Shown one piece after another: positions 381 to 63,188 of a DNA stretch of 64,000 nt (within the stretch, counting starts at the first letter, position 1; every line of letters starts with the position of its first letter). The stretch is from Eledone cirrhosa (taxonomy: Eukaryota), in contig OZ024741.1 in the NCBI GenBank assembly GCA_964016885.1, forward strand, positions 113,646,001 to 113,710,000, written 5' to 3'. Under the pieces are notes generated by a model. It ran no database searches and was not told where the DNA came from. It was given only the letters and a program-made list of their open reading frames with translations. The position numbers and the translations under genes were made by a program.

Positions 381-382
<2 letters not shown>

Positions 383-592
383 CGAAGGAGTTGTGGTAAG
401 GAACCAGATGGACCATAACGCACCAAAGTACTCAATACTTAAGGTAGTAGAGTGGGTAATAGGAACGAGTAGGACCCCGACGGCTGAGCTCAAGCCGTTT
501 CGACGGCTAATTCTGGACTAAATGAAAATTTTTATCCTGGATAAAAATTTTCATTTAGTCCAGAATTAGTGTCGGGGTCCTACTCGTTCCTA
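381..592 (-). mobile_element. (TA)n-flanked fold-back element carrying the 3' half of a hammerhead ribozyme
   Basis: Arms 460-481/571-592 and 507-537/539-569. Minus strand reads GAAA-CGGC-loop-GCCG-UC-GGGGUCC (501-472). A second copy lies at 40817-40918 in opposite orientation. Confidence 0.7.
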
Positions 593-773
593 TATATATA
601 TATATATATATACATATATGTATGTGTATATATACATATATATATATATGTAGAACCTCATCTATATTAAAACTATATACATATATATATGTGTGTATGT
701 GTGTATATGTATATGTGTGTATATATATATATGTATGTGTGTTTGTGTGTATATATATATGTGTGTGTATATG

Positions 774-805
<32 letters not shown>

Positions 806-932
806 ATATATATATATGTATGTGTATATGTATATATATATATGTATATATTTGTGTATGTGCATTTATGTATTTTGTATATGTGTATATTTATATGTAT
901 ATATATGTGTGTGTATATATATATATATATAT

Positions 933-1610
933 GTAGAAGTTAATATGTCCAGGGATACTAGGTACCCCTAGAAATACATAGGTTGTCTATGATTCAAGGT
1001 TGTTCAATGGTGTTAATTTGATACACCAGAACTATAATATTAAGATAAGCAGAACAAGTAAAATTCAATCAATTTTTCAAAATACATTAAAAAATATAAT
1101 ATAAATATTTACCTCTCCTAGTGGCCCTTACTGATCAGTTTCGCATTAACACCATTGAACAACCTTGAATCATAGACAACCTATGTATTTCTAGGGGTAC
1201 CTAGTATCCATGGACATATTAACTTCTACCTTTTTCTCCGTCCATTGAGAACAATCCTGTTGCTCTACTTGGCTGCTATTTTTTTAGTAGTAATTGTAGA
1301 CAGCAAGTCTTTGATTTTCCCGCTTTTACTTTGGTCCAGTTTACATACGGGTCAATTTTACGACCTTTCAGACCTTTATTAGCTGGCAGGAGGTTGTATA
1401 TTTTGTCGTTCCTGGGACGTTTAGCCCTAGGAAGGGAAAATGCTTCTCTGATGAGCTTTGGTTTTCCATCATAAATCCATCGGATTTATGAGGTTTTACA
1501 AAGCGAAACTGATCAGTAAGGGCCACTAGGAGAGGTAAATATTTATATTATATTTTTTAATGTATTTTGAAAAATTGATTGAATTTTACTTGTTCTGCTT
1601 ATCTTAATAT
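933..1610 (+). mobile_element. Non-autonomous PLE/retrozyme-like element (family D), ~485-nt unit plus an inverted permuted copy
   Basis: 933-1017 is the reverse complement of 1145-1229, and 1037-1144 of 1503-1610. (TA)n lies on both flanks; internal HHR; no ORF. Confidence 0.8.
1443..1523 (+). ncRNA. Type I hammerhead ribozyme with extended stem II
   Basis: CUGAUGA 1448-1454; GCUUUG/CAAAGC stem II enclosing a further hairpin; GAAA 1505-1508; palindromic CUGAUCAG; UA; short wobble-rich stem I. Confidence 0.8.
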
Positions 1611-1643
1611 ATATATATATATGTATATATGTATATATATATA

Positions 1644-1704
<61 letters not shown>

Positions 1705-1799
1705 GTGTATATGTATATATATATATATTTATATGTATATATGTGTATATATATATTTATATATATATGTATATATGTGTGTGTGTATGTAAATGTGTC

Positions 1800-2300
1800 T
1801 GTTGACACCTGGAATATAGCTTAAGAGAAACATGACAATAATGATATGATAGGCACCCAATATTTTGAACTGGTTTATAGAATTCTCTTGGCTTTTGTCA
1901 TTCTTAGTAGAGCTTTAAAGAATTAGCTTTTAAAGAATTTCCCTTTTCTTTAAATCTATCAACCATGACCGACCCCCAACCATCTTATAGACACCTGAAA
2001 TATAGGCATTGTTAGCTGAAGAGAAACTTAAAAATAAGGAGTGGCACCCCAATCTGAACTTGTTTATAGAATTCTTTCTGCCTTTGTCACTCTAAATATA
2101 AATTATAGCCTTAAAGAATTAGCTTTTAATGAATTCCCTTTTCTTTCAACCAATGACCTCCACCCATCCCACTCCTCACCCTCTCCAACCACCTGAAAAG
2201 ACATAAATACCACAACCTTTATTTTGGAAAGCCAGATTCCTGATGATTTCTAAAGAATTAAACAGTTCTAGTCCTGTAGAATCTCATCTATATTAAAACT
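1800..2300 (+). mobile_element. HHR-bearing element family C, with an internal diverged ~190-bp duplication
   Basis: 3' part is homologous to 25441-25520, 51300-51425, 63140-63188 and 650-676. It ends in (TA)n. 1851-2010 resembles 2043-2200. Confidence 0.65.
2234..2284 (+). ncRNA. Hammerhead ribozyme, family C (GAAA mutated to UAAA)
   Basis: AGAUUC-CUGAUGA-uUUC..GAAu-UAAA-CAG(uucuaguc)CUG-UA-GAAUCU; perfect 6-bp stem I. Confidence 0.7.
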
Positions 2301-19249: not shown

Positions 19250-21273
19250 TCATCATCATCATCATCAACGTTTAACGTCCGTGTTCCACGCTTGCATGGG
19301 TTTGGATGGGGGTTTTCCCACTTGAGGCAAGAGTGATTGTCTTGCACGCATAGGACTGTCTGGCGGGTTTTCTACAGTTGGATGCCCTTCCTAACACCAA
19401 CCACATTTACAGTGTGGGGCTGGGAGGTTTTTACCGTGTTGCCTACACGGCCACATTACAGCGTGGACTGTGTGTTTTTTTATCGTGACACCTACACGAT
19501 CTCATTTGTTTCGGCCTATATGTTGTGGCACCAACATAACTTTACATTGAAAGGGACGGTGTGGTTGGGGTGGGGGAGGTGGGACGGGTGTGTATTTTGT
19601 TAGAGATGCCTACTGGCTGTAGTAGGTTTTACTTTGTATTTAGGTAAGGCGGGTCTTCTCTATTACTGAGTACCGCCAAAGGCAAAGGTCTCAGTCCAGT
19701 GACATTGTCTTGGAGAGGTGTAAGTGTGTGAGGTCGGAATTTATCAGCTCGTCCCAGGTTTTTCTGGGTCTGCCTACTCCGTGGCTACCGTCTATCTTTA
19801 TTGCCCTGCACTTAGTTATACAGCTATCGTCTTTCATGCACATCACGTGACCATACCAACGTAGCCTTCTCTCGAGTAAACAACATCTGATCCCTCTTAT
19901 TTCTAATTTTTTCCTTAGTTCGTTTATGCTTTGCCGTTCACGTATATTACTATTACACATCCAGCGGAGCATGCAAGCTTCGTTCCTCTCTAGTCTGCGT
20001 ATATCCTCTGCACACAATGCCCAGGTCTCACTGCCATGCAACATTGCTGTTCGTATGCAGGCATCATACAACCTGTCTTTCATTTTTAGGGAGAACCCTT
20101 TAGCGGCTAATAGTGGTATAAGCTCTCTGAACTTTTTCCATCCAGTTCTGACTCTAGCTACTGTACTTTCAGATCACCCTCCCCCACTGCTGATTTTGTC
20201 ACCCAGGTAACGGAAGCTGTCCACTATTTCTATAGAACCCTCTGCGCAGTTGAAAGAGCTAGTATTTTGTGGGCACTTGCTGCTACTTATTGCACCAGAG
20301 CACCGGCCACATGTAAAATCTATGTTCTTAGTTAGCTTACCTGTGATCCCACGACATCTTTTATGCACCCATACTTTGCATTTGGGACACAAAATGGAGT
20401 TTCTACCTACGCCTTTCCTACACTCTGAGCATGGCCACTTCCCGGAAGGGACCGCCGCCTTATTTTCTTTCTTACAAACTAGAACTTTAGTCTTAGCCAG
20501 GTTAATTTTAAGGCCTTTTTTATTCTAGGCCGTGCTTCCATGCTTGGAATTTCTTCTTTAGCTCGGCCATTGATTCAGCTATGAGTGTTAGGTCATCTGC
20601 GTATAGGAGTTCCCATGGGCAGCTGGTCTTGAACTCCTCTGTTATAGCCTGAAGGGCAATAATAAATAGTAGGGGGCTGAAAACAGAGCCCTGATGGACG
20701 CCAACTTTTACTCTAAACTCTTCACTATATTCGTTGTTAATTCTAACCTTGCTGACTGTTTCTTTATACATGGCTTGTATAGCTCTCACAAGCCATTCGT
20801 CAACACCTAGTTTTCTAAGAGCCCACCAGATAATGGAACGGGACACTCTGTCGAAGGCTTTCTCCAAGTCGACAAAAGCTAAGTATAGGGGTTTACTTTT
20901 AGCTAGGTACTTCTCCTGTAGTTGTCGTACAATGAAAAGAGCATCTGTGGTACTTTTCCCTGACACAAACCCGAACTGCATTTCATCTAGATCAATTCTT
21001 TCTCTGATTAGTTGCGCTATTACTTTTTCCGTGACCTTCATGACCTGGTCGATTAATTTAATGCCTCTATAGTTACTCCTATCTAGGGCATCTCCTTTAC
21101 CCTTATAACAGTTAACGATGATGCTGCTATGCCAGTCCTTCAGAACAACCCCATTCTGTACGACTTGGTTAACTATCCGGGTGACCATGGTGTGTCCCAC
21201 CGTACCAGATGCCTTCAGCATCTCAGCAACTATTTCCGAAGGCCCAGCCGCCTTACCCGTCTTCATATCTTTG
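19247..21273 (-). mobile_element. 5'-truncated RTE-clade LINE
   Basis: RT motifs KAAGP, NYRGI, QFGF, FVDLEKAFD, GVHQGS, YADD, FRYLG; 3' UTR and (TGA)n tail at 19247-19266; both ends abut (TA)n. Confidence 0.95.
19645..21273 (-). pseudogene. RTE reverse transcriptase (partial) with an embedded PHD finger
   Basis: ORF pieces 20520-21293, 20174-20392 and 19691-20083; frameshift near 20520 and stops at 20174 and 19691. Confidence 0.9.
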
Positions 21274-21285
21274 ATATATATATAT

Positions 21286-21616
21286 GGAGGCACATGGCTT
21301 AGTGGTTAGAGTATTGGCCTTGCAATCGAAAGGTTGTGAGTTCAATTCTCAGACCGGGTGATGTGTTGTTTCCTTGAGCAAGACACTTTATTTCACATTG
21401 CTCCAGTTTACTCAACTGTAGAAATGAGATGATAGGGACTGGGGTCCATATCATTCCACTGCAAAGTGTTCGTGCAGGTGCCACGGCAAAAAAGCACCCA
21501 GCACTCACTGTAAATGAGGTTGGTGTTAGGAAGGGCATCCAGCTGTAGAAATCAAGCCAGAATCAGTTCCCGTCCCACCCTTGAAAGCGGACGTAAAATG
21601 AAATGAATGAAATGAA
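21286..21616 (+). mobile_element. SINE family 1
   Basis: Full head, body and (AAATG)n tail; preceded by (TA)n. Confidence 0.9.
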
Positions 21617-21914
21617 TATATATATATAAATTATAAATTACCCAATTATCAAAGTAATGTTCAAATCAGTTAATTGCTGACAATCGTTTCTTCCAAACTT
21701 TTGCTTGGAATCATCAGAACATTATCAATGTTTGTACATATAATTAACCTCCTATTCAACTGAACAATCATATAGATACATATATATTGATGTTGTGAGC
21801 AACAGTTTCCTATTTGCAGGGTATAATGGATGCAAAATATATTATACGAGAATTGTACAAAAATTAAAATTAAAATTAAAAGAACAGATATGTGTGTGTG
21901 TGTGTGTGTATAAT

Positions 21915-25456: not shown

Positions 25457-25508
25457 GGCTTTCCTGATGATTTCCATCGAATGAAACAGTTCTAGTCCTG
25501 TAGAAGCC
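25457..25508 (+). ncRNA. Hammerhead ribozyme, family C, intact core, in an ~80-bp TA-flanked insert
   Basis: GGCUUUC-CUGAUGA-uUUC(cauc)GAAu-GAAA-CAG(uucuaguc)CUG-UA-GAAGCC. Confidence 0.85.
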
Positions 25509-25518
25509 ATTTCAATAT

Positions 25519-25579
<61 letters not shown>

Positions 25580-25805
25580 ATATATTATATGGTAATAAGG
25601 TAGTAATACATTACTGCCTACCACTATTTAGGGTGTGTATAAAAAATACTTATAACTGCATAAGGTTTTGTATTTACATAACCATAAATAGTATAACTAA
25701 TACTATATATATTATATATATTATATATATATATATATATTATATATATTATATATTATATATATATATATTATATATATATTATACATATGTAAATATG
25801 ATAAT

Positions 25806-26205
25806 AATGGAGCTGCGGCGCTGCAAATGGGTTACATATGAAAAAGTTTGTCCTCATCAGCGGCCATCCAACCGTCGTAGGCATTTCGTCGCATTAAAGG
25901 CCATATACCTCAGGTTGGTGCGAGCAACGGCTAAAAAAAAGTCGTTGGGACACGTAAATAAAGGGGACGCTAGGGTAAACAAACAAAATGGTTTAAGCAG
26001 CAGAAAGTGATGAAGAAGGAAACAAGTCCCAGATTTCTATGAATTTAAACCATTTTGTTTGTTTACCCTAGCGTCCCCTTTATTTACGTGTCCCAACGAC
26101 TTTTTTTTAGCCGTTGCTCGCACCAACCTGAGGTATATGGCCTTTAATGCGACGAAATGCCTACGACGGTTGGATGGCCACTGATGAGGACAAACTTTTT
26201 CATAT
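25806..26205. mobile_element. Young TA-flanked fold-back element (family E): 161-bp arms plus 30-nt tail
   Basis: 25836-25996 vs 26045-26205, one mismatch seen; a related fragment lies at 13377-13463. Confidence 0.85.
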
Positions 26206-26217
26206 ATATTATATATA

Positions 26218-27337: not shown

Positions 27338-27930
27338 ATCTTGGAGAGGTGTAAGTGTGTGAGGTCGGATTATATCAAGTCGTCCCAGGTTTTTCTCGGT
27401 CTGCCTACTCCGTAGCTACCTTCTATTTTGATCGCCCTGCAATTTTTTATACAGCTGTCATCTATCATGCGCATCACGTGACCATACCAACGTAATCTTA
27501 TCTCAAGTAAACAGCATCTAATCCCTCTTATTTCTAATTTCTCACTTAGTTCATTTATGCTTTGCCGTTCGCGTATATTACTATTACACATCCAACAGAG
27601 TATGCAAGCTTCGTTCCTCTCCAGTCTGCACAGATCCTCTGCACACAAGGCCCATGTCTCACTGCCATGTCACATCGCTGTTCGTATGCAGGCATCATAC
27701 AGCCTGCCTTTTATTTTTAGAGAGAAACCTTTAGCGGCCAATAGTGTTATAAGCTCTCTGAACTTTTTCCATCCCGTTCGGACTCTAGCTACAGTACTTT
27801 CAGAGCACCCTCCACCACTGCTGATTTTGTCACCCAGGTAACGGAAGGTGTCCACTATTTCTATAGAACCATCTGGGCAATGGAATGAGCTAGTATTCTG
27901 TGGGCATTTGCTGCTACTTATTGCACCAGA
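27338..27930 (-). mobile_element. RTE LINE internal fragment (C-terminal region)
   Basis: ORFs 27670-27987 and 27370-27648 match 19700-20300. Confidence 0.9.
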
Positions 27931-28091
27931 TATATATATATATATATATATTGGGAGGGTCATGTTGCCAATTAGAAACACACGCACCAGTTGCTTTCAC
28001 TTCAATTTATTATAATAAATTTATAAATTAAGGAATTTATAAATTTCCGGTTGGTTGGTTGGTTCCACAACCAGATGATTGTTCATATATT

Positions 28092-28134
28092 GTCAAAGTT
28101 CTTTCGTCACACATTCTGTGACCTCTTCAATGAC
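28092..28134 (-). ncRNA. PLE hammerhead (core mutated to UUGAAGA)
   Basis: Same motif as 33326-33368 with one core substitution. Confidence 0.65.
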
Positions 28135-28333
28135 TGGGGATTCTTTTCTTTGTTTTTGTGCCTCTCCTTTGTTCTGTCCTACGCCATCTTGTTTTTGTGT
28201 GTGTTGTGTGCTTAGTTTGCGCATGTGTTACATCCGGGTGTCTGTGTGTGTTTATATTTGTTTATTTATTTGTTTATTTATATGTTACTAGTTGGTTGTT
28301 TGTTCTATATGTGTGTGTGTTTTCATTTTGTCC

Positions 28334-28720
28334 TTAATTGTAAGTTGTGATGTTGCTGTTCCATTCATGTTTTCTATTTAATTTTGGTTGGAGTTCATTT
28401 ATGTTTATTGCCCCTGTGATTTGTCTAAACATTGCGTCTTTTCTGTGTGTAGATTCTATTTTTATTTCTATGTTCTCTAATTTACCCTTATGTTCAGATG
28501 ATTCTTTACTATCTTGAAGGTTTCGCCAGTGTTCATTTATCCGTTCCCCTATACTACGAGCTGTCTCACCTATGTACATTATATTCTTATCTCTACATTG
28601 TCCTTCAGTACATCTTATGCTATATACTACATTTCTAGTTTTACAGTTAATATGGGGGCTTAATTTACAGATTATACATTTCTTATCTATACAGGGAGGT
28701 TTTTGAAAAGGGTATGTATG
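28334..28720 (-). pseudogene. PLE GIY-YIG endonuclease (C-terminal type, Cys-rich linker)
   Basis: PCIDKKCIIC..NCKTRNVVYSIRC..C..YIGETARSIGERINEH..PKLNRKHEW; an internal deletion is likely. Confidence 0.9.
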
Positions 28721-29974
28721 TATTGCTAATAATTCACTTATTAGCAATACATACCCTTTTCAAAGACCTTCCTGTATAGATAAGAAATGTATAATCTGCA
28801 AAGTTGAACTCAGAAAGTAAAGTTAAAATAAATGTTACTAAGCATTTGACTTGCTCTATAACTATTCTGCCAATCCAATACCAGTAATAATAATAAACTA
28901 CAAGAAATACTTTTAAATATCAACATCATAAAGGTATAAGAATACAGTAATGAAGAGATATAATTTTACTAACAAGTCCCATGTTAACAAATCACAACCA
29001 TAATGGGAGACTTTAATGAAAATGTTACTAGAGAAAACATTAGTAATATAACTGGTCAATGGGGATTAGTTAAAGTTAAGTTAAATTCCTGGTGGCTTAT
29101 GAGGTCAAAGCTTATCTTTCTTTTATTAGTGTTAAGTGACTAAGATCACAAGATTTTCTTCTGGATGGGATGCCACTCCATCGTAGGGTTAAACACCTAG
29201 TAGCTGCTCCTGGTACTCATTTCAGTTGAGCTGACTAGAGCAATATGAACCAAGAACATGTGTTACCTATCAAAGTCAAAACATTATGATTGTGAACCAC
29301 ATGCTTTCATAACAACATCAAAGAATGTTAACTAATTCTATTTCCCACTGGAATCACTTTTCTTCTCCAGCATTACTGCTATTTACTGTGAAGACATGAA
29401 CATTATAACTATTTCTCACTTACTATTCCTTGAAAACATTAGACTTGTTGTCTGTATAAGAAACCATTTTATGTAATATCAATACCAATGTTAATATTTT
29501 CTTATAATCTGTAGAGAGAATTGGTTAAACTACATAATCTATTCCATTCGTAGGTGAAATGTCTTGTAATTTATTTGTTCTTGGTGGATTACAATTATTG
29601 GTGTCTGATGAATGGGTAATTAATATTAATTGGTTCTGGAGGAAATGAGATGTTGTGACATTCATGGCTTGACCTATTGATAATGATTTCTGATTTAGGC
29701 ACAAGGCCAACAATTTTAGGAGAGAGGAAAGTCGATTAAATCAATCCCAGTGAGTTATTTGTACTTTATTTTATCAACCCTGTATGGATGAAAGAGAAAG
29801 GTAACCTCAGTAGGATTTGAAATCAGAATGTAAAGGGACGTTACTATATGCCACAACGCATATTGATAATGCAAGTGAAATTTATTAGCTGTAACTCAAA
29901 TTGGAAACTAAATCTCAATATCTCTATTATACACCCTGGCAACTAGATGGTTATTCACCAAGACAGTCATAGAA

Positions 29975-33116: not shown

Positions 33117-33589
33117 TCGTTTCTGAATTTGTTTAGCAAGATTCTTTATCTGAAAACATGTGTTGAAACCGATATTGTTATACTTTGGGAGGGTCATGTT
33201 GCCAATAAGAAACACACGCACCAGTTACTTTCACTTCAATTTATTATAATAAATTTATAAATTTAGGAATTTATAAATTTCCGGTTGGTTGGTTGGTTCC
33301 ACAACCAGATGATTTTTCATATATTGTCAAAGTTCTTTCGTCACACATTCTGTGACCTCTTCAGTGACTGGGGATTCTTTTCTTTGTTTTTGTGCCTCTC
33401 CTTTGTTCTGTCCTATGCCATCTTGTTTTTGTGTGTGTTGTGTGCTTAGTTCGCGCATGTGTTACATCCGGGTGTCTGTGTGTGTTTATATTTGTTTATT
33501 TACATGTTACTGGTTGGTTGTTTGTTCTATGTGTATGTGTGTTTTCATTTTGTCCTTAATTGTAAGTTGTGATGTTGCTGTTCCATTCA
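33117..33589 (-). mobile_element. Second copy of the PLE 3' region
   Basis: 33186-33589 matches 27951-28368; it extends ~70 bp further 3' before (TA)n. Confidence 0.9.
33326..33368 (-). ncRNA. PLE minimal hammerhead ribozyme, intact core
   Basis: GUCA-CUGAAGA-gGUCAC..GUGAC-GAAA-GAAC-UU-UGAC. Confidence 0.75.
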
Positions 33590-35328: not shown

Positions 35329-35333
<5 letters not shown>

Positions 35334-36555
35334 TTACAGTAATCAAAGTTCAGTTTAAGTCATTTATTTGCTTACAATTGTTTCCTCCAAACCGAGGTTT
35401 GGATTCTTCGGAGCAACTATTTATAACATACTTGACCTCCTTTTCAACCCAAGAGACACATAAAACATATGCGCATATTGATGGCATATATAATAGTGGG
35501 ACCATACCAGGTCCTACTGTTATATTACATCTGCATGGAGCAGTGACTTGAGAGTCTGACTCCTCTTATGGAACGTTCAGATATGACACCCCTTAATTAA
35601 TGGATGGTAATCATCCTAATATATACACCCTTGTACTTCTTAATGGACAACTCTCTAACCTATAAATGGGTAACATACTCTAGATATTAGTTATAACTTC
35701 ACATGATAGGCACGTATTTGAATCACCATTAATGTAGTTTAGCATAGTAATGTAACTAAGATAACTAGCTAGTTACCTCCCCTTACGCATTAATTCCCCT
35801 TAGTCATTCAGGCAATTCCGGAATCTGGACAGCATGATATATTAATTAAGAACCGACTGGATACGGTTTATAGCTTGACTATATGCTGAACCACTGCGAA
35901 TTATACGATAGACGCGTGTTCTCTATATATATATTGCGTCTCATGGATTATGTGAGTGGTGGTGTGAGCAAGGACAGTGGTACGACCTTGCCTACGATAC
36001 AATAAGGTTTATAGTATGTTGAAGGTTTTTGATATTTTGGCGTTTCCCCGCATCCGAGACTGTATATCATAGAGATGTATGACAATAAATGACTTAATAA
36101 TTCAGCCTATATAATAAGATCGATTGCCTGCTTCAGCTGCCTGACCCTGCAAATATCATTCTGACGCACTCTAATCATGTATAGATAAGACACGCGTGCA
36201 TGCTACACGGGAGATTGTTTCATACACTGACTACTCTAAGCTTTCCTCTTGCTTTATCTTCATAGACTGCCAACGCTTCATGTTTATCTTTATTTTCACT
36301 CTTATTTTCACTCTTGTTTTTATTTTATTTTATTTTTATCCTGTAACCTTTATATGTAAACTGCCATGCTATATCATTTGATGAATGTCACCCCACTGTT
36401 GATCAATATGCGCATATGTTTTATGTGTCTCTTGGGTTGAAAAGGAGGTCAAGTATGTTATAAATAGTTGCTCCGAAGAATCCAAACCTCGGTTTGGAGG
36501 AAACAATTGTAAGCAAATAAATGACTTAAACTGAACTTTGATTACTGTAATCTCT
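35329..36555 (+). mobile_element. Young 1.2-kb non-coding element with 154-bp inverted arms, each carrying an HHR
   Basis: 35329-35482 is the reverse complement of 36402-36555 with no mismatch seen; the interior has no substantial ORF. Confidence 0.85.
36468..36516 (+). ncRNA. Hammerhead ribozyme variant (CCGAAGA core); mirror copy at 35368-35416 on minus
   Basis: UUGCU-CCGAAGA-aUCCAAACC(uc)GGUUUGGAg-GAAA-CAAUUG-UA-AGCAA. Confidence 0.8.
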
Positions 36556-36720
36556 ATATAACAGCTCTGTAAAACAACTGATGTTATTACATTGAGCTAT
36601 TTATCTTACTGGTAATAGGATAGTAATTAATGACTATCTCTCACTATTTAGGGTTTGTGTATATATAATATATTACCATCAAAGATTTTATTGCATACAT
36701 AACCATAAATAGTACCCTTA

Positions 36721-36775
<55 letters not shown>

Positions 36776-36778
36776 TGA

Positions 36779-37060
36779 AAATGGAATTGGAAATAGCACG
36801 GAAAATATATTTAAGGATCTGTTTTTGTTTTTTTTCTTCTTTGATTCGTCAAAGTGACATTATTGAAAAAATGAGAGAAACAATTCTTTTTAAAGAAAGG
36901 AGTTTTATAATGTATATATTTTATACATCATAAAACTCGTTTTTTTTAAAGAATTGTTCCTCCCATTTTTTCAATAATGTCACTTTGACTAATCAAAGAA
37001 GAAAAAAACAAAAACAGATACTTAAATATATTTTCCATGCTATTTTCAATTCCACTTTTT
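36779..37060. repeat. ~140-bp-arm imperfect palindrome between microsatellites
   Basis: Centre near 36919; arms pair with scattered mismatches. Confidence 0.8.
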
Positions 37061-37705
37061 CTCTATAACTTCTGTTTTCTATAGAACCTTACTGCCTTTT
37101 CAAATATATATATATATATATAAGGCAGGTAAAATTCCCAAGATCCACGGACAAGTTCTCTTCGGCAGTCGCTGTTCTTCATCTTCACCACTAGGTCTCG
37201 CATTTCCCAGAATCCAGTGTCTGTCCTTAGGCCATCAACATATGATATCCTCAGGCTCCCTCGTCCAGTGTGTTCATGTTGGAGCTCCCTTGGGACCACT
37301 GAGTGCAGTGTCAACTGTGAATGTCGGGAAGCATGTCCAGTTAACCTCAGTCTCAGAATATGTGCTTTTGCTAATAATTGTTTCTACTTTTGGCACAAGA
37401 CCAGCAATTACCCAGTACATTACTGGTACTTTATTTTATCGACCCCATAAGGATGAAAGGCAAAGTTAACCTCGGCGGGATTTGAACTCAGATCATAAAG
37501 GGCCGTAACTCTTTGCTGTAAAGCATGGCGTCCGACCCTCTACCGATACTGCCAATCTACTTTTGCTTAATAATGTTTATGAAACTGGCAGGTTTTTTAA
37601 TGTATTACTAATATCATGTATTAAAATATAAGAATTACTTCAATGTTTACCTATAGAAGGCTCATTCTTTTGTAATATGAAATCAAAGATAACTATATAT
37701 AAATA

Positions 37706-40804: not shown

Positions 40805-40816
40805 TATATATATATA

Positions 40817-40918
40817 GCTCTGCCGTCGGGGTCATACTTTTTTATTTCCCACTCTACTAGTATTGAGTACTCTGGTGCGTTATGGTCCATCTGGTTCCTT
40901 ACCACAATTCCTTTGTTA
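40817..40918 (+). mobile_element. Fragment of the 381-592 family
   Basis: Reverse complement matches 381-490; TA on both sides. Confidence 0.8.
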
Positions 40919-41074
40919 TATATATATATATATATATAAATAAATAGATAAATAAATAAATATATATAAATAAATAAATATAAGCAGATGGGATATTTAA
41001 TTTGTTGGAAATTCAACAAATATAAATGTTTATAACTGATGCAGAGCACTCGACAAATTTCTGGAGTAAATATT

Positions 41075-41410
41075 CAATGATATTAAATAATTGGAAACTA
41101 TATTTATAAAACCATATTTATTCTATTATATATATTTCAAGGGTACCAAAAACTTTGGTACGCTTTCATCAGATAAAATGCAAGGTGTGTTTTATAAATT
41201 TTGACAAGGCCAAGGAACATACCTTATCAGTTGAATTTTCCAAGGAAAATTCAGCTGATAAGCTATGTTCCTTGGCTATGTCAACATTTATAAAACACAC
41301 TTTGTATTTTATCTGATGAAAGCGTACCAAAGTTTTTGGTACCCTTGAAATATATATAATAGAATAAATATGGTTTTATAAATATAGTTTCCCTTTATTT
41401 AATATCATTG
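41075..41410. mobile_element. 336-bp palindrome with two back-to-back hammerheads
   Basis: Arms 41075-41241/41244-41410 with a 2-nt loop. Confidence 0.9.
41306..41365 (+). ncRNA. Type I hammerhead ribozyme, intact; mirror copy at 41120-41179 on minus
   Basis: AUUUUAU-CUGAUGA-AAGcGUACCAAA..UUUGGUACcCUU-GAAA-UAUAUA-UA-AUAGAAU. Confidence 0.9.
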
Positions 41411-41448
<38 letters not shown>

Positions 41449-41454
<6 letters not shown>

Positions 41455-42780
41455 TAGGAATAACCAAAGAGTGCTTAGAAATACATTGTTTTATTAGCTA
41501 ACAGTGTTTCATCCATACCCCATGGCAGGAATCTTCACAGCCTATAAACAAGAGTATATCAATAGTTGCTTGCTCCATCGAGCTGCATCACCAGAACAAG
41601 GTTAAAGGACCAGAAGGGGGTCCTGAGGCCAGCGCTATATGGAAAAAGACAGAATACATGATGCTCATAATGTCATAAAATGTCTTAAAAAATTACATCA
41701 AAAATTAAAAATTACACCAAAAATTTATCATTAAATGGTGCAATAGATGATAAAGAGGTTGGGAGAGGGTAGCAAGGGATGAGTGAAGGGATTACTCAGC
41801 ATGATCAGAAGCAATAAAAAAAATAATAAAAAAGTACAAAAATACAGGGATAACAAAAGAGATAAATATAAAAATACAAAACGATAAAGGAACAAAAAGC
41901 CCGAAAACCCCCCCAAATATAAAACAAAGCAAAGCATAGATACATTAAAGCACAAGCAGTGCAAAAAGAGGGTGTACAGGTAGATCTAGAGAGTTTGCAA
42001 GCATGAGTCTGTGAAAAGAATAGTTGGTTAGCAGTGGTGCAGCCTTATATGTATGATAGTCCATATGAGGGATGGTGTACTCCAATTATATCGCCTTGTA
42101 ACAGGTCAATTTTCCTTATCATATCAGCACCTTATGAACCACATCGATATGTTCCAGTTCCGAACGTAAAGTGAGATAACACTATTTTTCCAAAACCTAT
42201 ACCCAGGGGTTTTCGGGCTTTTTGTTCCTTTATTGTTTTGTAGTTTTATATTTATCTCTTTTGTTATCCCTGTATTTTTGTACTTTTTTATTATTTTTTT
42301 TTATTGTTTCTGATCATGCTGAGTAATCCCTTCACTCATCCCTTGCTACCCTCTCCCAACCTCTTTATCATCTATTGCACCATTTAATGATAACATTTTG
42401 GTGTAATTTTTAATTTTTGATGTAATTTTTTAAGACATTTTATGACATTATGAGCATCATGTATTCTGTCTTTTTCCATATAGCGCTGGCATCGGGACCC
42501 CCCTGCTGGTCCTTTAACCTTGTTCTGGTGACGCAGCTCAATGGAGCATGCAACTATTGATATACTCTTGTTTATAGGCTCTGATGATACCTGCCATGGG
42601 ATATGGATGAAACACTGTTAGCTCATAAAACAATGTATTTCTAAGCACTCTTTGGTTATTCCTATAACTATAACGGCTCTGTAGTATACTAGTTATCCTA
42701 CTTTGAGCTAAAACCACACTGTCATACCAAGGGCAATATATCTGCGTGTCTGGGCTTATTGATATATTTATCAACGAAAC
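41449..42780. mobile_element. TA-flanked element with ~465-bp inverted arms, an HHR in each arm and a ~108-nt tail
   Basis: 41449-41911 matches the reverse complement of 42206-42672; tail 42673-42780. Confidence 0.9.
42577..42623 (+). ncRNA. Hammerhead ribozyme; mirror copy at 41496-41542 (core GUGAAGA)
   Basis: GGCU-CUGAUGA-stem II-GAAA-CACUG-UU-AGCU. Confidence 0.7.
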
Positions 42781-51360: not shown

Positions 51361-51410
51361 CTTTCCTGACGATTTCCTTTGAATGAAACTATTCTAGTCC
51401 TGTAGAAGCC
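51361..51410 (+). ncRNA. Hammerhead ribozyme, family C
   Basis: CUUUC-CUGACGA-uUUC..GAAu-GAAA..CUG-UA-GAAG; upstream 51300-51360 is homologous to 2180-2235. Confidence 0.7.
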
Positions 51411-53174
51411 ATTTCTATATTAAATTTGTTGTATATATATATATATTTATATAATAGTTGCTCTCATGGAAATTTCAAGGTTATTTTGAAAATAATAAGA
51501 TTGTTGAAATTTGATAGAGAAACATGAAATACATAATTTATTTTCAAATTATATCTTTTATGAAGTGGTGTTTGTTTCTCTTGAAATGGTGTAAATTTGC
51601 AGAGGTAGTAGTGAAGGTGCAGTCTTAAGAGAAAATATTCATTGGAAACTATATTCTTTGTTATATGTTTGTCAACTTGAGAATTTTTATCTATTATTTT
51701 TATCTCTATGCAAAGAAGTAAACAATATTAACTATGGAACATAATGTAAAACATTGACAATAATGTTATTCTTCTATAGTCTGATTATATTAGTAAAGAT
51801 TTAACAAATCTAAATATGCTACATACATCCATATTTTCATATCAGAGAAATGTGAATATTTTTATGGGCAAAAATGTAGACCACAAGCATAATGGTTGGA
51901 AAATATCCATGACCTTGTTTGGTTTTGCCTTGGGATTCAGCTGGATCATTTTGGAGATGGATGCTTCCAATAGGGCCTTATGAAAGGCATGGACTCTGAG
52001 GGCTCTGCTCCTATGACCCTCTCAAGTGGGAGGAGGAGGAGAAGAATAGAAACATGTATATGGCTGGACTTAAACCCATATACAGTTCCTACCTATGCCT
52101 TTTCTACATATCAAGCAAGGCCATTTCTCTGTTGGTATCAGGATCCTGTCTTATCTACTTACTTAAACTTTGATTTTGCTAAATGTGTTCTTTCTTTTTA
52201 TTTTGAAGTTTTAAAAGAGATTTTGTTGCTATTTCTAGCAGGTCAGACAACTATATATATATATATATATATATTAGCTCATATTAATAGCTTAATGATA
52301 CTAGCTTATGTAGACCATCTGTAGATTTCTGATTTCAGTGACAATCTTTATCGATATATTCAACTGGGATATTCATGACTGACTTACCAGTTTGATGTTG
52401 AAGATACTCAAAGGTTGAATTATAAAATTCACCTTTATGTAAATTTCTAAATTTAAAAGAAGATTCATCCTCATACTTATGTTTCTATAGGTGAGATATG
52501 ATAGATAGACAGATAAATAGATAGATAGATGGATGTTTAGGTGAATGGATAGATAGATAGAGAGAGGCGGACAGACAGGCAGACAAATAGATGGATAGAT
52601 AGAGAGAATAATATACAGACAAAGAGACAGACAGATGGATAGAAAGCCAGCCAGATAGATAAGTATTAGGTAGACAGACAACTATATAAACAGAAAGATA
52701 AATAAAAAGACAGACGGATAGATAGTTTAATAGGTACCCAGGTAAATAGCTAAATAGATAGGCAGATGGTTAACTTTTATGAATATTCTCATATAGAAGA
52801 TGAAAAGAATAGAATGAATAAATCCATAGAATCAGTTAGAAAACTAAAATGATAGGTTATATCAAAAAAAAGGAAACAAGATTAATGGTACAAAATTTGC
52901 AAATTTCCTGCAGAAGTGGAATAACTGGTTCAGTGTCCATCAAAACTGCAATAGTTTAGCATTAAGCACCAATGTTAAACACTTGATGCAGTCAAATGCA
53001 ATTAGATGCAAAGAATTATCTTCTTACAGCTACTAACAGAAAGGAATGTAAATTGTGAATAGAAACCAAACTTAATAATCTGAGGCTGAATACTAAACCA
53101 ATTAGCAGAAAGTAAAAGAAAACTGGGGAAGTAGCAAAATAAGCTACAATTTCTTTTCTTCTTCATTTCCACGA

Positions 53175-55690
53175 CTATCACCACAACAACTAGCACTACC
53201 ATTACTATCACTACTATCACCACCACCACCAAACTACCACAACCATCAACATCACTACTATCACCACCATCACTACTATCACCACCATCACTACTATCAC
53301 CTCCATCACAACTATCACCAACACCAAACTACCACAACCATTACTATCACCACCATCACAACCATCACTACCACCAAACCACCACAGCCATTACTATCAC
53401 TACTATCACCACCACCACAACTATCACCAACACCAAACTACCACAACCATTACTATCACCACCATCACAACCATCACCACCACCAAACCACCACAGCCAT
53501 TACTATCACTACTATCACCACCACCACAACTATCACCAACACCAAACTACCACAACCATTACTATCACCACCATCACAACCATCACCACCACCAAACCAC
53601 CACAGCCATTACTATCACTACTATCACCACCATCACAACCATCACCACCACCAAACCACCACAGCCATTACTATCACTACTATCACCACCACCACAACTA
53701 TCACCAACACCAAACTACCACAACCATTACTATCACCACCATCACAACCATCACCACCACCAAACCACCACAGCCATTACTATCACTACTATCACCACCA
53801 CCACAACTATCACCAACACCAAACTACCACAACCATTACTATCACCACCATCACAACCATCACCACCACCAAACCACCACAGCCATTACTATCACTACTA
53901 TCACCACCACCACAACTATCACCAACACCAAACTACCACAACCATTACTATCACCACCATCACAACCATCACTACCACCAAACCACCACAGCCATTACTA
54001 TCACTACTATCACCACCACCACAACCATCACCAACACCAAACTACCACAGCCATTACTATCACTACTATCACCACCATCACAACCATCACCAACACCAAA
54101 CTACCACAGCCATTACTATCACTACTATCACCACCACCACAACTATCACCAACACCAAACCACCACAACCATTACTATCACTACTATTACCACCACCACA
54201 ACTATCACCAACACCAAACTACCACAACCATTACTATCACTACTATCACCACCACCACAACCATCACCAACACCAAACCACCACAACCATTACTATCACT
54301 ACTATCACCACCACCACAACTATCACCAACACCAAACCACCACAGCCATTACTATCACTACTATCACCACCATCACTACTATCACCACCACCACAACCAT
54401 CACCGCCACCAAACCACCACAGCCATTACTATCACTACTATCACCACCACCACAACCATCACCAACACCAAACCACCACAGCCATTACTATCACTACTAT
54501 CACCACCACCACAACTATCACCAACACCAAACCACCACAGCCATTACTATCACTACTATCACCACCATCACTACTATCACCACCACCACAACCATCACCA
54601 ACACCAAACTACCACAACCATTACTATCACTACTATCACCACCACCACAACCATCACCACCACCAAACCACCACACCCATTACTATCACTACTATCACCA
54701 CCACCACAACCATCACCACCACCAAACCACCACACTCATTACTATCACTACTATCACCACCACTACAACCATCACCACCACCAAACCACCACACCGACTA
54801 CTATCACTACTATCACCACCACCACAACCATCACCACCACAGCCATTACTATCACTACTATCACCACCACCACAACCATCACCACCACCAAACCACCACA
54901 CCCACTACTATCACTACTATCACCACCACCACAACCATCACCACCACCAAATTACCACAGCCATTACTATCACTACTATCACCACCACCACAACCATCAC
55001 CACCACCAAATTACCACAGCCATTACTATCACTACTATCACCACCACCACAACCATCACCACCACCAAATTACCACAGCCATTACTATCACTACTATCAC
55101 CACCACCACAACCATCACCACCACCAAATTACCACAGCCATTACTATCACTACTATCACCACCACCACAACCATCACCACCACCAAATTACCACAGCCAT
55201 TACTATCACTACTATCACCACCACCACAACCATCACAACCATCACCCCCAAACTACCACAACTATTATTATCACTACCACTACAACCATTACTATCACCA
55301 CTACTACTGCTACCACCTCTACAACCACTACCACCATCACCACCACAACAACTACCATAACTATTATTACTACAACCATCACCTCTCTATCACCACAATC
55401 ACAACTACTATCAAAATCACCACCATTGCCATCTCCACTACCATCATCACTATCATTACAACGACTACCATCATAATCATCATCATCATCATCACTAACA
55501 ACAACACTACTATTACCAATACCACCATCACCACACCTTCATTACTGAACCACCTTCACCCCCACTACCAATACAACCACCATCACCATCACATCACCAT
55601 TACTACACCACCACCATACCACCACCACAACTATTACCACCTTCATCACTGTGACACCATCATAACACCACCATCACCACACCACCACCA
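53175..55690. repeat. ACC/ATC/ACT-derived minisatellite, 59-bp unit with a 109-bp higher-order repeat
   Basis: CAGCCA recurs at 53385, 53494 and 53603 (109 bp apart); 59-bp period at 54961-55200. Confidence 0.9.
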
Positions 55691-56099
55691 GTCGCCATAT
55701 TTAAATAGTAAAAGGATGTATTTGAATATCATGTTAATTAAGACTTGGTCTATTCAAAATGATTTAATTGGATTTTACATGAGACCACTATCTATGAATG
55801 TTGGAACCAATGTAATTACTTAGCGAAATAAAGGGGAAAGGAAACCCTAGGAAATGACGTTATTTTTAAGTAAAGGGCTAGGATTTCATGTGACACCAGA
55901 ATTGTCTCTCTTCCAATGGCCTTGTGTTTAGGTTGTAAGTTCGATTATTGGGCTGGGTGGTGCATTGTTCTTAAGAAAGATATTTCATGTATCATCAACA
56001 GCAGCAGCTGAGGGTTAACCCCTGCAATGGACTGATGTCTGGATCAGATGAAATAGAGGTGTTTTCATGAGAGGTCTGGAGCTCCTATCATTAAAACAC

Positions 56100-62456: not shown

Positions 62457-63121
<665 letters not shown>

Positions 63122-63144
63122 CAGAGAGAAAGAGAGAGAGAAAT

Positions 63145-63188
63145 AGCTTCTACAGGACTAGAACTGTTTCATTCAAAAGATATCATCA
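63145..63188 (-). ncRNA. Family C hammerhead truncated inside the core
   Basis: (a)UGAUGA..GAAU-GAAA-CAG(uucuaguc)CUG-UA-GAAGCU. Confidence 0.6.

What the first reader, a model, noticed from the sequence alone, without database searches (positions are those of the whole stretch)
933..1610. Inverted copy crosses a tail-to-head junction, implying a ~485-nt circular or tandem monomer
Seen: the + strand body is 1145-1610. Read on minus, 1144 down to 933 gives the body's 3' end (1503-1610), then 19 novel nt (1036-1018), then the body's 5' start (1145-1229). The inverted piece begins at GC-GAAA inside the ribozyme. Inference: reverse transcription of a circular or multimeric RNA with a template switch. 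The monomer size is close to family B despite unrelated sequence.
Basis: partly seen in the sequence, partly recalled or inferred. Interest (0 to 1): 0.75.

Follow-up and report, generated by a model that had tools for sequence, protein, structure and literature searches.

The report
Hammerhead mini-Penelope insertion with long tail
This is a young copy of a repeated, non-coding 485-base element that carries a hammerhead-ribozyme motif and sits head-to-head in an AT microsatellite; it was most likely pasted in by a Penelope-like retrotransposon enzyme, in a layout already described for those elements, and nothing here shows that its RNA was circular.

Summary
Read on minus, 1144-1037 equals 1503-1610 (108/108), then come 19 nt, then 1017-933 equals 1145-1229 (84/85). 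That gives a 485-nt unit with a type I hammerhead motif and no sense ATG ORF above 15 aa.

The junction is not private to this locus. Contigs from three runs (two studies, two organisms) bridge it with 10-14 other letters, so the '19 novel nt' are ordinary family sequence.

Other copies stop in (AT)n at the same two ends as this insertion's arms, about 100 nt apart. With the head-to-head truncated arms and the (AT)n target, this matches the published Penelope-like layout: inverted copy plus one-sided 'tail'. Other elements in the window share parts of that layout, one coding a GIY-YIG domain.

The template was longer than one unit or circular. A 570-593-nt partial-tandem linear RNA primed at both DNA ends is enough. 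The proposed junction search cannot test circularity, because the predicted ligation point lies at the ribozyme cut, 92 nt away.

Verdict: a new family of a known kind. The unusual points are a ~100-nt tail (30-40 bp in print) and a Penelope footprint on a retrozyme-sized unit.

The parts
1145..1610 (+). Right arm: 5'-truncated direct copy, 466 nt of the 485-nt unit; its 3' end merges into (AT)n (exact end ambiguous within about 1606-1615)
   Evidence: body covered in other copies, e.g. X4 contigs 1166-1432 and 1434-1610
933..1144 (-). Left arm: inverted, 5'-truncated copy, 212 nt (unit positions 1503-1610 + 19-nt linker + 1145-1229); its 3' end points outward into (AT)n
   Evidence: 108/108 and 84/85
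933..1036 (-). One-sided extension ('tail') of 100-104 nt: the linker plus the first 85 nt of the next unit, present only at the left end
   Evidence: 100 nt from paired end to microsatellite; other copies end in (AT)n at 1033 and at 937/1227 (table 7)
1018..1036 (-). 19-nt linker between unit end and unit start; family sequence missing from the right arm only because that arm is truncated at 1145
   Evidence: bridged with 31 or more letters on both sides by X1 rec 2, X4 rec 9 and 10, X5 rec 17
1008..1032 (-). Predicted hairpin across the end-to-start junction (TGGTGT/ACACCA); pair 1024:1012 has probability 0.998 and changes G-C to A-U, or to G-U, in other copies
   Evidence: fold; table 3 (phase inferred from matching contig depths)
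1444..1522 (+). Type I hammerhead motif: stem I 1444-1447/1519-1522 (two G-U pairs), CUGAUGA 1448-1454, stem II 1455-1460/1499-1504 with a long distal hairpin, GAAA 1505-1508, palindromic stem III ACTGATCAGT 1508-1517, predicted cut after GUA 1518
   Evidence: cleavage not tested
1126..1144 (-). 3' half of the hammerhead (GC-GAAA, stem III, cut site) at the truncated start of the left arm; the arm crosses the cut site by 16 nt
1144..1145 (.). Head-to-head joint of the two truncated 5' ends; no microhomology, not a palindromic centre
895..932 (.). Left (AT)n/(GT)n microsatellite target; no target duplication can be called inside it
1611..1790 (.). Right (AT)n/(GT)n microsatellite target

Best explanation
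This is a copy of a multi-copy, non-coding 485-nt hammerhead-motif element, likely inserted in trans by a Penelope-like (PLE) reverse transcriptase-endonuclease that would have primed cDNA from both cut ends of an (AT)n target on uncleaved, more-than-unit-length RNA.

Inferred steps: (1) The GIY-YIG endonuclease cuts both strands in (AT)n. (2) One end primes at the unit's usual 3' start site (about 1610) and copies 466 nt back to 1145. (3) The other end primes at a second start site about 100 nt further downstream (1229 of the next unit) and copies 212 nt back through the linker and the ribozyme cut site, stopping at the base of stem II. (4) The two cDNA ends are joined blunt, head-to-head. 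A linear partial-tandem RNA of 570-593 nt is enough; no circle is required.

Shown: the anatomy, the 485-nt period, the multi-copy family, the junction in other copies, the two recurrent ends. Inferred: the enzyme, the two primings, the form of the template, ribozyme activity.
For: (a) Both 3' ends point outward into (AT)n and the truncated 5' ends meet head-to-head, with an extension on one side only. Craig 2021 describes this for PLEs: an inverted 5'-truncated copy, a tail at one end, and (TA)n targets for Naiads; Arkhipova 2013 describes the inverted pLTR and tail too.
(b) Other copies end in microsatellite at both ends used here: at 1033 (X1 one contig; X11 61 reads, possibly one locus) and at 937/1227 (X1 one contig, X5 one contig); one more X1 contig leaves at 1226 into AT-rich letters (table 7). 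This fits two RT start sites with the tail between them, as shown in vitro for the anole PLE, which cuts and extends both strands and does not need ribozyme cleavage.
(c) 4 of 24 pieces shown bridge the whole linker with 10-14 other letters, from 3 runs, 2 studies and 2 organisms. 55 RAD molecules end at 1145 (depth beside 56); other listed ends fall on AATT sites (1015, 1065, 1295), and 1145 is an AATT site only in the linker form (enzyme inferred, not on record).
(d) Both arms share letters that are in the minority among other copies (G1530/C1117, G1562/C1085), so they come from one source.
(e) Longest sense ATG ORF 15 aa, stop-to-stop 83 aa, around the unit.
(f) Type I hammerhead motif with palindromic stem III; the scan found 4 such motifs in the window against a mean of 0.01 in 100 shuffles. 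One diverged contig keeps the palindrome through a double change, CTGATCAG to CCGATCGG.
(g) Same window: a truncated coding element with GIY-YIG (E 1.1e-5), a 5' inversion, a hammerhead-like 3' repeat and an (AT)n end, and six more hand-picked head-to-head elements with one-sided extensions.
Against: No sequence similarity between this family and the coding PLE in the window (only low-complexity matches, E 0.1 or worse), so the partner enzyme is not identified. The tail (100-104 nt) is about three times the 30-40 bp in print. The joint 1144/1145 was not seen in any listed read or contig. Linear and circular templates predict the same letters, so the preference for linear rests on parsimony and on the anole result, from a different PLE clade and host. 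Arkhipova 2013 explains head-to-head arms by self-priming on antisense RNA instead. The strict hammerhead fold is 8 kcal/mol above the free fold of 1438-1530 (-19.8 vs -27.9), and Rfam gives no hammerhead match.
Confidence: 0.6

Rival explanations
1. The template was the 485-nt circular RNA (retrozyme model): a multimeric transcript self-cleaves, is ligated, and a PLE RT copies the circle past the unit boundary from two start sites, on one circle or on two RNAs paired through the palindromic stem III.
For: Both arms cross the predicted cut site intact and are 192 of 193 identical. The unit folded as a circle gives -132.5 kcal/mol, z -6.7, 0 of 60 shuffles as low. Animal type I hammerhead repeats are expressed as circles of about 170-400 nt, mussel included. 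The stem III palindrome pairs with itself at -13.6 kcal/mol.
Against: No RNA data were available. This locus holds only one complete ribozyme, and no full dimer was seen (no genome held; contigs short). In the anole PLE, uncleaved RNA is the main substrate and no reads ended at the cut site. A strong fold is expected for any structured retroelement RNA and does not show a circle.
Confidence: 0.22
2. The inversion arose by self-priming (fold-back) on an antisense template or on the nascent cDNA, as proposed for bdelloid PLEs, rather than by priming from both target ends.
For: Proposed for head-to-head PLE arms with palindromic joints. Other elements in the window have near-symmetric centres (41241/41244; 28664-28802; 36772-37064).
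Against: This joint links different unit positions (1503 and 1145) with no palindrome and no microhomology. Fold-back on the left arm would run into microsatellite after 1229, yet the right arm goes on with 1230-1610.
Confidence: 0.1
3. The sequence is only the terminal repeat and tail of a long protein-coding PLE; the 485-nt period is a local duplication.
For: In coding PLEs the tail is the start of the body or ORF, and retrozymes are related to PLE terminal repeats. 52 loose-end rows were not shown.
Against: The tail sequence recurs 466 nt upstream in the same insertion; segments of the loop are found in other copies and in a second organism; no ORF; the loose ends shown look like microsatellite, diverged variants of the same unit, or flanks.
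Confidence: 0.05
4. Assembly or library chimera, or a later DNA rearrangement of a plain copy.
For: Arms nearly identical; joint not confirmed in the laid runs; Craig 2021 notes such structures trouble assemblies.
Against: Both outer ends match ends seen in independent copies; the left arm holds 19 nt absent from the right arm but present in the family; one mismatch between the arms; the same layout in several unrelated families in the window.
Confidence: 0.03

Closest known systems
Penelope-like element insertions with inverted pLTR and tail (Craig 2021 PMC8557442; Arkhipova 2013 PMC3846280; Frangieh 2024 PMC11167929)
   Same: 5'-truncated direct copy plus adjacent inverted truncated copy; extension at one end only; AT-rich or microsatellite target; hammerhead motif in the terminal repeat; tail made of the sequence that follows the repeat in the tandem.
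   Different: No RT or GIY-YIG ORF; unit 485 nt rather than several kb; tail 100-104 nt rather than 30-40 bp; joint is not palindromic.
Non-LTR retrozymes of animals (Cervera and de la Pena 2020 PMC7229834; Li, Clavereau and Pollet 2026 bioRxiv 10.64898/2026.07.22.740005)
   Same: Non-coding, low GC (35.5%), type I hammerhead motif, strongly folded unit that closes head-to-tail; length within the 51-972 bp range of Li 2026; proposed there to be PLE-dependent.
   Different: No tandem of two or more complete ribozyme-bearing units seen here; longer than the ~170-400 nt given for invertebrates; expression and circles not shown; the insertion carries the PLE inverted-arm and tail footprint, which the main text of Li 2026 does not discuss ('tail' 0 hits, 'inverted' only in a reference title).
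Non-autonomous Chlamys elements such as MRC1 of Chlamydomonas (Craig 2021, passage)
   Same: Non-coding PLE dependants that form pLTRs and head-to-tail insertions.
   Different: Green-algal clade described as lacking canonical hammerheads; those resemble their autonomous partners at the 3' end, whereas no partner was found here.

Membership tests
PLE-type (non-autonomous) insertion | Partial tandem: terminal repeat followed by the start of the next unit | tested here: met
   junction in other copies
PLE-type (non-autonomous) insertion | Inverted 5'-truncated copy adjacent to the 5' end | tested here: met
   933-1144
PLE-type (non-autonomous) insertion | Tail present at one end only (two recurrent 3' ends) | tested here: met
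   but 100-104 nt long, outside the published 30-40 bp
PLE-type (non-autonomous) insertion | AT-rich or microsatellite target | tested here: met
   other copies table 7
PLE-type (non-autonomous) insertion | Hammerhead motif in the terminal repeat | tested here: met
   motif and stems; no Rfam match; activity untested
PLE-type (non-autonomous) insertion | Similarity to the terminal repeat of an autonomous PLE in the same genome | tested here: inconclusive
   none to the one coding PLE fragment in the window; no genome held
Autonomous PLE | ORF with RT and GIY-YIG domains | tested here: not met
   longest sense ATG ORF 15 aa, stop-to-stop 83 aa
Non-LTR retrozyme | Type I hammerhead in a short, low-GC, non-coding unit | tested here: met
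   485 nt, GC 35.5%
Non-LTR retrozyme | Genomic tandem with at least two complete ribozymes (the 'active' criterion of Li 2026) | tested here: inconclusive
   not at this locus (one complete motif, one antisense half); other loci not testable without a genome
Non-LTR retrozyme | Self-cleavage and accumulation as circular RNA | not testable with these tools
   needs a cleavage assay and RNase R northern
Plant LTR retrozyme | Type III hammerhead in LTRs with PBS/PPT and 4-bp target duplication | tested here: not met
   motif is type I; no direct LTR pair or callable duplication; PBS/PPT not searched

The most novel reading that the evidence does not exclude
The insertion is a direct genomic footprint of a Penelope-like enzyme copying a retrozyme circle: a 485-nt self-cleaved, ligated RNA, perhaps held as a pair through the palindromic stem III so that each cut DNA end gets its own template, with two start sites about 100 nt apart. 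This and two other hammerhead families in the window (tails about 77 and about 86 nt) would then form a long-tail class and give a small substrate for testing the so far hypothetical retrozyme-PLE link.
Probability: 0.2. Interest if true: 0.55.

Novelty: new member of a known kind. Interest (0 to 1): 0.28.

Why it matters
Mostly it is an ordinary example of known Penelope-like insertion anatomy. Its modest value: papers link animal retrozymes to PLEs by shared ribozyme type, co-occurrence and phylogeny, while this locus shows the PLE insertion footprint itself (inverted arm, one-sided tail, microsatellite target) on a non-coding, retrozyme-sized unit. The right arm is just long enough to show the period, so one insertion defines both start sites and the whole unit, which makes it a compact RNA substrate for asking whether a PLE enzyme prefers a linear or a circular template. 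The ~100-nt tail widens the published range.

Tried and rejected
No genome is held for the window, so copy number, full dimers and the autonomous partner could not be searched.

No RNA holder was listed; this says nothing on expression.

Rfam at gathering score: 0 matches in the window. At E up to 10 on 930-1615: 10 matches, all below gathering, no hammerhead family; the miRNA-precursor hits follow the inverted arms. The first pattern scan for hammerhead cores did not list this ribozyme because stem II exceeds the gap allowed, and a first scripted scan gave none; a relaxed scan found it.

Metagenome scan with a 21-nt motif: 5 loci, all rejected, since BLAST showed only the 21-nt word and nothing beyond. 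Viral contigs: 0. Earlier scan notes by place and by sequence: nothing.

Pfam on 25 of the 72 ORF stretches of 100 aa or more: 3 had hits (RVT_1 at 20520-21305, PHD-like at 20174-20524, GIY-YIG at 28334-28759); none belongs to this element.

Considered and rejected: that the 19 nt are untemplated or captured (they are in other copies); that the arm starts at a cleaved RNA end (it crosses the cut by 16 nt); a DNA transposon or MITE with terminal inverted repeats (the ends are unequal and are both the element's 3' side); microhomology joining at 1144/1145 (none).

The host species was not established. 'Octopus' and 'cephalopod' were put into paper searches on a hunch from the microsatellite-rich look, which was not tested.

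Full report
Observation. On the minus strand, 1144 to 1037 equals 1503-1610 at 108 of 108 bases, 1036 to 1018 is a 19-nt piece not found elsewhere in the locus, and 1017 to 933 equals 1145-1229 at 84 of 85. Both sides are (AT)n/(GT)n microsatellite. The implied unit is 485 nt, 35.5% GC, with a longest sense ATG ORF of 15 aa and a longest stop-to-stop stretch of 83 aa when read around the loop. The family has no other copy in the window.

The ribozyme motif. The plus strand carries a type I hammerhead motif: CUGAUGA at 1448-1454, a 6-bp stem II (1455-1460/1499-1504) with a long distal hairpin, GAAA at 1505-1508, a palindromic stem III (ACTGATCAGT, 1508-1517), a predicted cut after GUA 1518, and a 4-bp stem I with two G-U pairs. 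A scan for this geometry finds 4 motifs in the window against a mean of 0.01 in 100 shuffles of two-base blocks; the score threshold was set after seeing the hits, so this only shows the motif is far from chance. Rfam does not recognise it, and the strict catalytic fold is 8 kcal/mol above the free fold. The palindrome would let two RNAs pair in stem III (-13.6 kcal/mol); the free co-fold of two copies did not give that dimer. Activity is untested. The left arm starts at 1503, two bases into stem II and 16 nt upstream of the cut, so both arms cross the cut site intact.

Other copies. No genome is held. The run index listed 13 runs, 9 holding part of the stretch; I laid 4 at 85% likeness. The family is multi-copy and varied: 356, 19 and 27 contigs and 362 reads were laid, many at 85-99% identity. 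Of the 24 pieces shown (380 not shown), 4 bridge the whole linker with at least 31 letters on each side: X1 986-1077, X4 935-1074 and 965-1074, X5 935-1073, with 10-14 other letters each. They come from two studies and two organisms. X1 may be the assembly's own sample; X4 is from another organism and study. So the junction is family sequence. In the RAD run, 55 molecules end at 1145 (depth beside 56). Three other listed ends (1015, 1065, 1295) sit on AATT sites and a fourth (1561) does so with the common G1562T variant; 1145 is an AATT site only when the linker precedes the body. That reading assumes an AATT-cutting enzyme, which the record does not name. Body pieces 1166-1432, 1420-1602 and 1434-1610 in X4 cover most of the rest of the loop.

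Structure across the junction. The linker pairs with the start of the next unit in a hairpin (pair 1024:1012, probability 0.998). In X4, two contigs change both sides (G-C to A-U) and one changes one side (G-U); the X5 contig is also G-U. Phase is inferred from matching depths in tables 3 and 8. In the distal stem II hairpin, U1472-A1488 becomes G-C in one X4 contig, and one X1 loose end keeps the stem III palindrome through a double change. These are few events in related sequences and only suggestive. The unit folded as a circle gives -132.5 kcal/mol, z -6.7, with 0 of 60 shuffles as low.

Two ends. Loose ends show copies running into microsatellite at 1033 (one X1 contig; 61 X11 reads, which may be one locus) and at 937/1227 (one X1 and one X5 contig); a further X1 contig leaves at 1226 into AT-rich letters. 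These are the two outer ends of this insertion, 100-104 nt apart along the RNA. Both lie in predicted single-stranded stretches. One X4 contig also leaves the alignment at 1227 but goes on as a diverged body, not microsatellite.

Mechanism. Craig 2021 describes PLE insertions as partial tandems with an adjacent inverted 5'-truncated copy and a 30-40-bp tail often at one end only, and (TA)n as a preferred Naiad target. Arkhipova 2013 shows the inverted pLTR and tail and notes that the tail extends into the ORF start. Frangieh 2024 shows in vitro that a PLE protein cuts and extends both strands of AT-rich DNA, starts reverse transcription at two internal RNA sites whose spacing is the tail, and does not need ribozyme cleavage. 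Applied here by inference: one DNA end primed at about 1610 and copied 466 nt; the other primed about 100 nt further along, in the next unit, and copied 212 nt; the two cDNA ends were joined without microhomology. Both arms share minority alleles, so they come from one source, and 1 difference in 193 makes the insertion young. The shortest linear templates are 570 nt (1145 through the next 1229) or 593 nt (1503 through the next 1610). A circle gives the same letters and is plausible from retrozyme biology, but nothing here selects it.

Context in the window. A truncated coding element at about 27950-28800 (minus) has a C-terminal GIY-YIG domain (E 1.1e-5) preceded by a CxxxxCxxC motif of the kind Craig 2021 gives for Neptune, Nematis and Naiad, a 5' inversion (28664-28802), a hammerhead-like 3' repeat and an (AT)n end. 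It has no similarity to this family. I picked 10 short-range inverted structures by eye and measured 7 (the coding element and two weak palindromes were left out). In all 7, one paired end abuts simple repeat and the other extends. The distances to the next pure dinucleotide run were 100 (this one), 77, 132, 50, 108, 165 and 39 nt. The values 132, 108 and 165 overstate the tail because no pure run abuts; for 40985-41414 it is about 86 nt by eye. For this element the script printed 16 nt on the short side only because the run is interrupted.

Comparison and novelty. It works like a non-autonomous PLE dependant and meets the layout tests. It is not an autonomous PLE. Retrozyme membership is open, because full tandems, cleavage and circles were not testable. 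Li 2026 already argues that animal retrozymes are non-autonomous PLE derivatives, and Craig 2021 reports non-autonomous PLEs in algae. What I did not find in print is this family, a ~100-nt tail, or the inverted-arm and tail footprint shown for an animal retrozyme. That rests on five literature searches and word searches in Li 2026 and Cervera 2020 ('inverted' 0 hits). The library lacks most subscription papers, no repeat database was available, and no supplements were read; those of Craig 2021 and Li 2026 list families and could hold this one.

Papers as seen. Li 2026: parts 1-3 of 5 (abstract to discussion) plus a word search. Frangieh 2024: parts 1-2 of 4 (main text and start of methods). 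Craig 2021 and Arkhipova 2013: passages from word searches only. Cervera 2020: passages plus the mussel section and the discussion. All others: search listing only.

Verdict. Real, correctly described, and explained by known Penelope-like insertion anatomy. New member of a known kind; interest 0.28. The circle-template reading remains possible at about 0.2.

Noticed in passing
window 382-593 and 40811-40916: Second hammerhead-like family: head-to-head at about 570, minus arm with a 63-nt hairpin, GAAA and a GUC site, short plus arm starting 3 nt before that site, tail 77 nt. The 40811 copy ends at the same long end and starts inside stem III.
   Followed up: partly
window 40985-41414: Third family: near-symmetric head-to-head arms of 171 nt, each with a complete type I hammerhead motif whose stem III is the palindrome ATATATAT; one-sided tail of about 86 nt.
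   Followed up: partly
window 27950-28802 (minus) and 33186-33580 (minus): 5'-truncated coding PLE (GIY-YIG, CxxxxCxxC motif, P0001) with 5' inversion and a hammerhead-like 3' repeat ending in (AT)n; a second, shorter copy of its 3' part at 33 kb.
   Followed up: partly
window 41447-42720, 35329-36600, 36772-37103, 25783-26208, 2317-2698, 62492-63013: More inverted-arm elements with one-sided extensions, abutting (AT)n or (AG)n; the extensions after 42672 and 36555 resemble each other over about 40 nt by eye; 42581-42620 has a minimal hammerhead-like core.
   Followed up: partly
window 1144, 571, 40811: Three 5' truncation points fall within about 16 nt upstream of a predicted hammerhead cut (about -16, -3, -10), none exactly at it. 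This may reflect RT stalling at the ribozyme core rather than use of cleaved RNA; too few cases to say.
   Followed up: no
window 2237-2297, 25459-25513, 51361-51416, 63139-63188; also 21679-21717 (minus): Further short hammerhead-like families (CTGATGA...GAAACAG core; and one with an 8-bp stem II at 21.7 kb), most ending in microsatellite; 1817-2300 looks like a decayed tandem of about 195 nt upstream of one of them.
   Followed up: no
window 20520-21305 (minus): RVT_1 fragment (E 4e-26) of a LINE-like element with related pieces at 27339, 32643 and 49020.
   Followed up: no
window 53100-55900: Long compound minisatellite with 9- and 41/50-nt spacing, open in three frames for 741-905 codons.
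   Followed up: no
X4 and X5 loose ends at 1420, 1469, 1227: A diverged subfamily of this element exists, with a different distal stem II hairpin sequence and a different upstream body.
   Followed up: no
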